Shown here: piece after piece, positions 41,981-42,401 of the stretch
How the letters are laid out: each line of letters starts with the position of its first letter
Numbering within the stretch: the first letter of the stretch is position 1
Source: Escherichia coli
Lineage (GTDB): Bacteria; Pseudomonadota; Gammaproteobacteria; Enterobacterales; Enterobacteriaceae
Assembly: GCF_045037415.1 (NCBI RefSeq)
Contig: NZ_CP173438.1
Direction: 5' to 3' (one strand)
DNA length: 64,000 nucleotides
Translations under genes and position numbers: made by a program
The notes under the pieces: generated by a model
What the model saw: the letters and a program-made list of their open reading frames with translations, nothing else
Told to the model about the DNA's origin: nothing
Databases searched by the model: none

Positions 41981-42401
41981 ATTCTTATCCTTAAAATTAA
42001 CCATGTTATCGATAAGGCTATATATGACCTTAATTTGTATCTAATATCAAAGGGATTATAACGATATGGCACGAGTTAACCTATTGACATTCAGGTGTTT
42101 TAAAGGTAGCAGCTCATGGTGTGTTATCCAGTAAGATGGAGAAAATTAATGGTCAGTCCTCACGCTATAACCAGATTGTTCAGGTAAGAAAGAAAACCAG
42201 AGATGCTAATCGAAGGGCGAACATAACGGCATGATTATGTTTATTTATATAGTTAGTTTTATAGATAAAATTGAAATTATAAAAATAAATAATGAATTAG
42301 CAGGAGCATCAACTGTAATATCTTAATCTCTGGTCGATTTTTGCAAAACCGACCAGTATTGTCGATAAATTATCGTCTGACTTATTTTGCTTCGATAAAG
42401 C

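What the first reader, a model, noticed from the sequence alone, without database searches (positions are those of the whole stretch)
42328..42360. Perfect 7-bp inverted repeat in the yoaB-yoaC intergenic region
CTGGTCG-N13-CGACCAG lies about 50 nt downstream of yoaB (minus strand) in an AT-rich 400-bp gap that also contains the yoaC promoter. No U tract follows on either strand, so it is unlikely to be a simple terminator; it may be a protein-binding site. Function unknown.
Basis: seen in the sequence. Interest (0 to 1): 0.2.

Follow-up and report, generated by a model that had tools for sequence, protein, structure and literature searches.

The report
Stem-loop ending the yoaB mRNA
The inverted repeat is real, but it is most likely not a protein-binding site: it encodes the RNA hairpin that forms the stable 3' end of the E. 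coli yoaB messenger RNA, an ordinary and well-known kind of element.

Summary
The repeat exists: CTGGTCG at 42330-42336 and CGACCAG at 42350-42356, 45 nt after the yoaB stop, with no T tract on either strand. A bare 7-bp repeat is not beyond chance. On the yoaB-sense (-) strand, however, it extends to an 11-12 bp hairpin (-15.5 kcal/mol, z -4.5).

The window is E. coli. Two published K-12 datasets place an RNA 3' end at this hairpin on the yoaB strand:
- Term-seq finds a 3' end at 1893787, 4 nt after the stem, in three growth conditions.
- SMRT-Cappable-seq finds full-length transcripts from the yoaB start site ending at 1893785. Of 23 reads, 18 end there and 3 read through.

A bicyclomycin-sensitive (Rho) termination region lies 232 nt downstream, in a G-poor spacer.

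The hairpin is single-copy in 5407 of 5426 E. coli genomes. It is kept in five other Escherichia lineages with compensatory stem changes. It is absent outside the genus, where yoaC and the AT-rich spacer are missing.

Best reading: a 3'-terminal stem-loop of a Rho-terminated mRNA, which blocks exonuclease trimming. A U-tract-less terminator is the main rival. A protein operator is unlikely but not excluded, because YeiE binds somewhere upstream of yoaC. Interest is low.

The parts
42330..42356 (-). Stem-loop of the yoaB 3' UTR. The core arms are CTGGTCG/CGACCAG. On the - strand RNA the stem extends to 11-12 bp through a G.U pair and A-U pairs, with a 3-5 nt loop.
   Evidence: Sequence. Fold of -15.5 kcal/mol, z -4.5. 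Stem invariant in 8 sampled E. coli, with variation confined to the loop. 92.9% of cells paired and 2 pairs with compensatory changes across 9 Escherichia sequences.
42326..42329 (-). Short single-stranded tail (AGAU here, AGAA in K-12) carrying the mapped RNA 3' ends. The Term-seq end at K-12 1893787 corresponds to window 42326. The SMRT-Cappable-seq end at 1893785 corresponds to window 42328.
   Evidence: Adams et al. 2021, Supplementary file 1. Yan et al. 2018, Supplementary Data 1. Colinear K-12-to-window mapping checked.
42357..42401 (-). yoaB 3' UTR between the stop codon and the hairpin. Its 3' part (42357-42383) is a block conserved across Escherichia whose role is unknown.
   Evidence: Alignment A2. 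A Fur-box test was negative.
42402..42746 (-). yoaB coding sequence (RidA/RutC-family protein), the gene whose mRNA ends at the hairpin.
   Evidence: RefSeq annotation of K-12 and of the identical strain SK1144.
42778..42778 (-). Published yoaB transcription start (K-12 1893335), phased on the same long reads as the 3' end at the hairpin.
   Evidence: Yan et al. 2018, Supplementary Data 1 and 2. Mapping.
41981..42325 (-). AT-rich, G-poor untranslated spacer downstream of the hairpin. It is the inferred Rho loading and termination zone. The published Rho termination region peaks at K-12 1894019, which is window 42094. The spacer also holds the conserved yoaC promoter block, with TATAAT at 42055-42060.
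   Evidence: C/G ratio of 2.0-2.3 in the first 150 nt. Adams et al. 2021, Supplementary file 2: Rho score 3.15, p 2.4e-6. Median read-through of 267 nt. Alignment A2.
41681..41980 (-). yoaC (DUF1889), the downstream gene reached by the minority of read-through transcripts.
   Evidence: Annotation. Operon variant b1809|b1810 in Yan et al. 2018, Supplementary Data 2.

Best explanation
The inverted repeat encodes the 3'-terminal stem-loop of the yoaB mRNA.

Shown: transcripts that start at the yoaB promoter end 2-4 nt after this hairpin at steady state, and a minority continue towards yoaC.

Inferred mechanism:
1. RNA polymerase transcribes through the hairpin, which has no U tract, into the untranslated, G-poor, AT-rich spacer.
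2. Rho loads on that spacer and terminates transcription over the next ~200-300 nt, before or around the yoaC promoter.
3. 3'-to-5' exonucleases (PNPase, RNase II) trim the tail back until the stable 11-12 bp hairpin stops them. This fixes the 3' end and protects the yoaB message.

The element lies in an Escherichia-specific insertion (AT-rich spacer plus yoaC) that separated the otherwise abutting convergent genes yoaB and yoaH. It therefore supplies yoaB with a transcript end that other enterobacteria do not need at this position.
For: - Term-seq 3' end at K-12 1893787 (+, the yoaB strand), 4 nt after the last stem base, in all three growth conditions (6545, 1585 and 1225 reads). There is no 3' end on the opposite strand within 1893700-1893899.
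- SMRT-Cappable-seq gives full-length primary transcripts from 1893335 to 1893785 covering only yoaB. 18 of 23 reads end there, 3 pass through, and the median read-through is 267 nt. A yoaB-yoaC operon variant is also listed.
- A Rho termination region (with and without bicyclomycin) is reported on the same strand at 1894019, 232 nt downstream, with Rho score 3.15 and p 2.4e-6. This is close to where the median read-through would end (1894052).
- There is no T tract. C exceeds G 2.0-2.3-fold in the first 150 nt downstream.
- These features match the published description of Rho-dependent transcript ends: a stable stem-loop without U-rich sequence, C-over-G enrichment downstream, and trimming by PNPase and RNase II (Dar & Sorek 2018).
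- The hairpin is stable. It is 4-5 kcal/mol better on the sense strand in E. coli. It is single-copy in 5407 of 5426 E. coli genomes.
- The stem is invariant in sampled E. coli and is maintained by compensatory changes in five other Escherichia lineages. The surrounding spacer diverges and carries indels.
Against: - The Rho score comes from 800-nt windows, so its position is coarse. It could also reflect bicyclomycin-induced transcription arising inside AT-rich DNA rather than read-through from yoaB.
- Position 1893787 itself was not scored for Rho dependence.
- No exonuclease-mutant data were available for this locus.
- 78% of full-length reads ending at the hairpin is equally what an efficient hairpin-dependent terminator would give.
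- The +2/+4 position of the end does not discriminate. The U-tract side of the neighbouring yoaC terminator ends at +5.
- The sense-strand advantage in folding energy does not hold in two lineages, L003 and L008.
- Covariation rests on only 9 sequences and 2 pairs.
Confidence: 0.62

Rival explanations
1. A non-canonical, U-tract-less hairpin terminator. The hairpin itself, perhaps helped by NusA or NusG or by a pause, makes RNA polymerase stop a few nucleotides downstream. About 13% of transcripts leak through, and Rho only cleans up the leak.
For: 18 of 23 full-length reads end within 2 nt of the stem, and none end in the next 50 nt. The 3' end is sharp in three conditions. In three Escherichia lineages the stem is flanked by an A-run and UGUUU(U) that resemble a bidirectional terminator. 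Dar & Sorek note that mixed or transitional terminators are expected.
Against: The 8-9 nt after the stem are AGAUUAAGA (AGAAUAAGA in K-12), with one or two U. The consensus scan calls no terminator here or at the hairpin in the other Escherichia versions; its one call in L005 is a different small hairpin just downstream. In established knowledge, E. coli RNA polymerase needs a U-rich tract for intrinsic release. A Rho-sensitive region lies just downstream.
Confidence: 0.22
2. A DNA operator. A dimeric regulator binds the palindrome and controls yoaC. YeiE is a candidate, since it has a ChIP-exo peak upstream of yoaC and activates it.
For: The site has perfect dyad symmetry. YeiE is reported to bind upstream of yoaC and to activate it. 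A 27-nt block next to the hairpin is also conserved.
Against: The arms differ between lineages by paired, compensatory substitutions. This preserves pairing but not a recognition sequence. The site lies about 270 nt upstream of the conserved TATAAT of yoaC, whereas a strongly conserved block sits directly upstream of that promoter and is the more natural YeiE site. The mapped RNA end gives the hairpin a sufficient role. The YeiE motif and peak coordinates could not be obtained.
Confidence: 0.06
3. A relic of the event that inserted yoaC, such as the end of a mobile element or a recombination site, now without function. Or it is simply a chance palindrome.
For: The hairpin lies 45 nt inside an Escherichia-specific insertion between yoaB and yoaH, at a junction that carries other insertions in other genera. 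A bare 7-bp repeat is expected by chance.
Against: It is single-copy, with no match in phages or true plasmids, and no matching repeat was seen at the other edge of the insertion. Compensatory maintenance of pairing across the genus and an invariant stem in E. coli argue for selection. It coincides with a mapped RNA end.
Confidence: 0.05
4. The 3' end belongs to a separate small RNA made from the yoaB 3' region rather than to the yoaB mRNA.
For: Term-seq classed the end as 'orphan'. The 27 nt before the hairpin are conserved.
Against: Long reads phase this 3' end with the yoaB start site 450 nt upstream. No promoter-like site was found in the right place. There is no U-rich tail for Hfq, no Rfam family matches, and no literature links yoaB with Hfq- or ProQ-bound RNAs. 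The 'orphan' label only reflects a 50-nt cut-off from the stop codon, and this end lies 76 nt away.
Confidence: 0.03

Closest known systems
Protective 3' stem-loops at the steady-state ends of Rho-dependent transcripts (Dar & Sorek 2018, NAR 46:6797)
   Same: A stable hairpin lies immediately 5' of a sharp RNA 3' end. There is no U-rich tract and no upstream A tract in E. coli. C exceeds G downstream. A bicyclomycin-sensitive region lies a few hundred nt downstream.
   Different: Exonuclease dependence was not tested for this locus. Rho dependence is known only at 800-nt resolution. The stem has an A-U rich inner half.
Canonical intrinsic (Rho-independent) terminators
   Same: The stem has a G+C-rich base and a short loop. 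Its position is just after a gene, and an RNA 3' end lies a few nt after the stem.
   Different: There is no U tract. The neighbouring yoaC/yoaH hairpin (window ~41620-41652) shows what the canonical form looks like, at least on its yoaC side.
REP/BIME extragenic palindromes that stabilise upstream mRNA
   Same: It is an extragenic palindrome in a 3' UTR that can block 3' exonucleases.
   Different: It is single-copy in every E. coli genome, has no REP consensus, and is not part of a dispersed family.
Palindromic operators of LysR-type regulators (for example YeiE)
   Same: It has dyad symmetry and lies upstream of a gene (yoaC) reported to be activated by YeiE.
   Different: The arms co-vary instead of keeping a fixed sequence. 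The 7-N13-7 spacing is not the T-N11-A LysR box, a comparison that rests on general knowledge. The site is far from the promoter.

Membership tests
Protective 3' stem-loop of a Rho-dependent transcript | Stable stem-loop immediately upstream of a precise steady-state RNA 3' end | tested here: met
   Hairpin of -15.5 kcal/mol. 3' ends at +4 (Term-seq) and +2 (SMRT-Cappable-seq).
Protective 3' stem-loop of a Rho-dependent transcript | No uridine-rich tract after the stem and no A tract before it | tested here: met
   The tail is AGAUUAAGAUAU and the upstream sequence is CGACAAUA. The scan finds 0 terminator-like sites.
Protective 3' stem-loop of a Rho-dependent transcript | Rho-dependent (bicyclomycin-sensitive) termination downstream of the stem-loop | tested here: inconclusive
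   A published Rho termination region lies at K-12 1894019 (+), 232 nt downstream, with Rho score 3.15. It comes from 800-nt windows, and the hairpin position itself was not scored.
Protective 3' stem-loop of a Rho-dependent transcript | C-over-G enrichment (rut-like) downstream | tested here: met
   C/G is 2.0-2.3 in the first 150 nt, and 63 C versus 45 G over 345 nt.
Protective 3' stem-loop of a Rho-dependent transcript | Longer 3' tails in pnp or rnb mutants (exonuclease trimming) | not testable with these tools
   The supplementary tables of Dar & Sorek 2018 are not held.
Canonical intrinsic terminator | G+C-rich stem with a short loop | tested here: met
   The 7-bp core has 5 G-C pairs, the total stem is 11-12 bp, and the loop is 3-5 nt.
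Canonical intrinsic terminator | U tract of about 7-8 nt directly after the stem | tested here: not met
   The other Escherichia versions are not called either.
REP/BIME or other dispersed palindromic repeat | Many copies per genome | tested here: not met
   One place per genome in 5407 genomes with sensitive blastn. One match in the window.
Known structured RNA family (Rfam) | Match to a curated covariance model | tested here: not met
   Only sub-threshold chance hits with E above 1.
Transcription-factor operator (YeiE or other) | Conserved recognition sequence in both half-sites | tested here: not met
   The half-sites change as GT to AC and T to C, with matching changes in the partner arm.
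Transcription-factor operator (YeiE or other) | In vivo occupancy at the site | tested here: inconclusive
   A YeiE ChIP-exo peak 'upstream of yoaC' is reported, but coordinates and motif were not retrievable.

The most novel reading that the evidence does not exclude
The conserved ~55-nt block (a 27-nt motif plus the hairpin) is a regulated read-through point rather than only a passive mRNA end. Under this reading, a factor bound to the RNA or to the palindromic DNA (YeiE being the one lead), or conditional Rho action, sets how much transcription from the core gene yoaB runs into the horizontally acquired yoaC. This would wire the new gene into an old promoter.
Probability: 0.07. Interest if true: 0.4.

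Novelty: new member of a known kind. Interest (0 to 1): 0.12.

Why it matters
It matters little beyond annotation. The result gives yoaB a defined 3' UTR and transcript end. It also explains two unlabelled entries in published E. coli 3'-end maps, one classed 'orphan' and one 'novelTTS'. The locus is a tidy illustration of a general rule: a stable hairpin without a U tract, sitting just after a gene, usually marks the trimmed end of a Rho-terminated mRNA rather than an operator. The comparative picture has mild evolutionary interest, because the hairpin appears only where an insertion (AT-rich spacer plus yoaC) separated yoaB from its convergent neighbour yoaH.

Tried and rejected
- Rfam scan of 41300-43000 at E up to 10: only chance hits.
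- Consensus terminator scan here and in three other Escherichia loci: none at the hairpin.
- Dispersed-repeat idea (REP-like): rejected, since the element is single-copy.
- Mobile-element origin: the gap has no match in phages. Among 'plasmids' it matches four Escherichia coli records (three of chromosome size, one of 420 kb) and one weak 65-nt hit in a Commensalibacter plasmid.
- Fur-box reading of the GATAAT repeats just 5' of the hairpin: the best match in the gap is 13 of 19 and lies elsewhere, and 28% of shuffles do as well.
- Small + strand ORFs ending at the hairpin (42121-42234 and 42231-42326): their stops are lost and residues changed in K-12, so they are not coding.
- Strand asymmetry as genus-wide evidence for an RNA role: it holds in E. 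coli and three lineages but reverses in two, so it is used only as weak support.
- YeiE motif and peak coordinates: supplements are not held and the motif is shown only as a figure.
- Supplements of Dar & Sorek 2018 and the Thomason 2015 start-site paper: not held.
- Literature linking yoaB with Hfq- or ProQ-bound RNAs: nothing relevant found.
- One repeat finder failed on a parameter limit and was replaced by a script.

Full report
**What is there.** The window is E. coli. The yoaB-yoaC gap is 100% identical to strain SK1144, and the locus is colinear with K-12 at 97.5% identity in reverse orientation. The genes are:
- pabB, 39947-41308 (-)
- yoaH, 41382-41561 (+)
- yoaC, 41681-41980 (-)
- yoaB, 42402-42746 (-)
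- yoaA, 42878-44788 (+)

The inverted repeat is real. CTGGTCG lies at 42330-42336 and CGACCAG at 42350-42356, with a 13-nt spacer, starting 45 nt after the yoaB stop. No T run follows on either strand, and a consensus scan finds no terminator.

Half of the shuffles of the gap contain one. But the pairing continues inward. On the - strand, which is the yoaB sense strand, a G.U pair and three or four A-U pairs make an 11-12 bp stem with a 3-5 nt loop. It folds at -15.5 kcal/mol with z = -4.5, and none of 200 shuffles folds as well. On the + strand the same position is an A.C mismatch, and the energy is -12.4 kcal/mol. Stems this long are rare in the window, and several of them are followed by a T run as terminators are.

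**Direct evidence for what it does.** Two published genome-wide maps for E. coli K-12 place an RNA 3' end at this hairpin, which is K-12 1893757-1893783.
- Adams et al. 2021 (eLife 10:e62438, Supplementary file 1) list a Term-seq 3' end at 1893787 on the + strand, the yoaB strand. It is 4 nt after the last paired base. It appears in LB at OD 0.4, LB at OD 2.0 and M63 medium, with 6545, 1585 and 1225 reads.
- That end is labelled 'orphan' only because it lies 76 nt from the stop codon, beyond their 50-nt limit for 'primary' ends. No end is listed on the opposite strand nearby.
- Yan et al. 2018 (Nat Commun 9:3676, Supplementary Data 1) list full-length primary transcripts from start site 1893335 to 1893785 that cover yoaB only, flagged 'novelTTS'. 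There are 23 reads from that start. 18 end at the site, 3 pass through, none end in the next 50 nt, and the median read-through is 267 nt.
- Their operon table also has a yoaB-yoaC variant from the same start.

So the RNA that ends at the hairpin is the yoaB mRNA, and a minority of transcripts continue towards yoaC. I did not verify which growth-condition sheet the Yan et al. row belongs to.

**Mechanism.** The sequence after the stem is AGAUUAAGAUAU here and AGAAUAAGAUAU in K-12, which is not a U tract. Adams et al. (Supplementary file 2) report a Rho termination region on the same strand at 1894019. That is 232 nt downstream of the hairpin and still upstream of yoaC, with Rho score 3.15 and p = 2.4e-6. 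It is close to where the median read-through of Yan et al. would end (1894052). The spacer downstream of the hairpin is untranslated, 31% G+C and G-poor, with C/G of 2.0-2.3 over the first 150 nt.

This is the signature described by Dar & Sorek 2018 for Rho-dependent transcripts. In their account, termination is diffuse and downstream. PNPase and RNase II then trim back to a stable stem-loop that lacks a U tract, with C-over-G enrichment just beyond it. I therefore read the hairpin as the exonuclease-blocking 3' end of a Rho-terminated yoaB mRNA.

The 3'-end role is shown. The Rho-plus-trimming route is inferred. The Rho score is low-resolution and could be inflated by bicyclomycin-induced transcription within AT-rich DNA, and no exonuclease-mutant data were available. 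The main rival is that the hairpin itself stops the polymerase despite lacking a U tract. The 78% of reads ending at the site fits either view. The +2/+4 position of the end does not discriminate either, because the U-tract side of the neighbouring yoaC terminator ends at +5.

**Conservation.**
- A sensitive blastn of 67 nt around the hairpin finds exactly one copy in 5407 of 5426 complete E. coli genomes, so it is not a dispersed repeat.
- In eight sampled E. coli of different lineages the stem is invariant, and changes fall in the loop and flanks.
- A scan of one genome per species with YoaB returned 80 loci. In Citrobacter, Salmonella, Klebsiella, Enterobacter and most other genera, the yoaB stop is only ~0-10 nt from the stop of the convergent yoaH.
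- Only the Escherichia loci carry yoaC and the AT-rich spacer between them. The hairpin therefore sits inside a genus-specific insertion and has no counterpart outside it.
- All five non-coli Escherichia lineages recovered have the hairpin at the same place with paired substitutions. L003 has CTGACCG/CGGTCAG. L004 and L005 have CTGGCCG with CGGCCAG or TGGCCAG. L006 has a U.G pair.
- In three of these lineages the stem extends outward through AAACA/UGUUU.
- On a 9-sequence alignment the 11-bp helix is 92.9% paired, against 25-47% for slid controls, and two pairs change on both sides.
- In a full alignment of the gap, the hairpin block and the yoaC promoter block are conserved, while the middle diverges and is deleted in one lineage.
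- The sense-strand energy advantage seen in E. coli holds in three other lineages but reverses in two, so it is only weak evidence.

**The protein-site idea.** Gao et al. 2018 report that the LysR-type regulator YeiE binds upstream of yoaC and activates it. The peak coordinates and motif were not retrievable. Three points argue against the hairpin being that site:
- The arms co-vary rather than keep a fixed sequence.
- The hairpin is about 270 nt upstream of the invariant TATAAT (42055-42060).
- A strongly conserved block lies immediately upstream of that weak-(-35) promoter.

I keep this rival at low probability.

**Comparison with known kinds.** The element works like, and meets the testable criteria of, the protective 3' stem-loops of Rho-dependent transcripts. 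It fails the U-tract criterion of canonical intrinsic terminators. It fails the copy-number criterion of REP elements. It matches no Rfam family. The gap has no relatives in phages or true plasmids.

**Verdict.** It is wrong in emphasis, because this is an RNA end and probably not an operator. It is an ordinary, previously unlabelled member of a well-known class, so interest is low.

Noticed in passing
window 41562-42401 (compare L007-L082): yoaC plus its flanking spacers (~840 bp) form an Escherichia-specific insertion between yoaB and yoaH. In most other Enterobacteriaceae these two genes are convergent, with stops ~0-10 nt apart. The same junction carries unrelated ~1.1 kb inserts in Phytobacter, Kosakonia and Superficieibacter. 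In Kluyvera and some others the DNA after yoaB is different, and neither yoaH nor pabB was found within 3 kb, so the junction looks like an insertion hot spot.
   Followed up: partly
window ~41620-41652: A hairpin between yoaC and yoaH (AGGACGCTTTT...AAAAGCGTCCT) has published Term-seq 3' ends on both strands: K-12 1894498 (+), which is window 41615, and 1894457 (-), which is window 41656. The yoaC side has a T5 tract. The yoaH side has none, yet carries a very strong end (94,187 reads), and a Rho region lies 60 nt further on (1894397, -). This is the same geometry as the yoaB hairpin.
   Followed up: partly
window 42357-42383 (- strand): A 27-nt block directly 5' of the hairpin is conserved across Escherichia species, although the sequence just after the yoaB stop is not. 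Its consensus is roughly CA(C/G)AC(G/A)ATAATTTATCGA.AA.A, and it contains the mini-palindrome GATAA-T-TTATC. A Fur-box test was negative. Its role is unknown.
   Followed up: partly
window 41981-42120 (- strand): The ~140 nt before the yoaC start are strongly conserved in all Escherichia lineages. They include an invariant TATAAT (42055-42060) with a poor -35. This suggests an activator-dependent promoter and is the more likely place for the reported YeiE site.
   Followed up: no
L089 (E. coli strain 74-2, NZ_CP050044.1), equivalent to window ~42345-42356: An IS1 element is inserted into the 5' arm of the hairpin, with duplication of TGGTCGGTT. An intact hairpin is regenerated on the yoaC side, but yoaB is separated from it.
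   Followed up: partly
window 42121-42234 and 42231-42326 (+ strand): Two small ORFs (37 and 31 aa) run antisense through the AT-rich gap, and the second ends 4 nt before the hairpin. Their stop codons are lost and several residues differ in K-12, so they look like chance ORFs.
   Followed up: yes
window 42746-42794 (- strand): The mechanical ORF for yoaB starts at a GTG at 42794. The published start site (window 42778) and the RefSeq annotation both support the ATG at 42746. A perfect TATAAT lies downstream of that published start site, 11 nt before the ATG, so a second, nearly leaderless start is conceivable.
   Followed up: no
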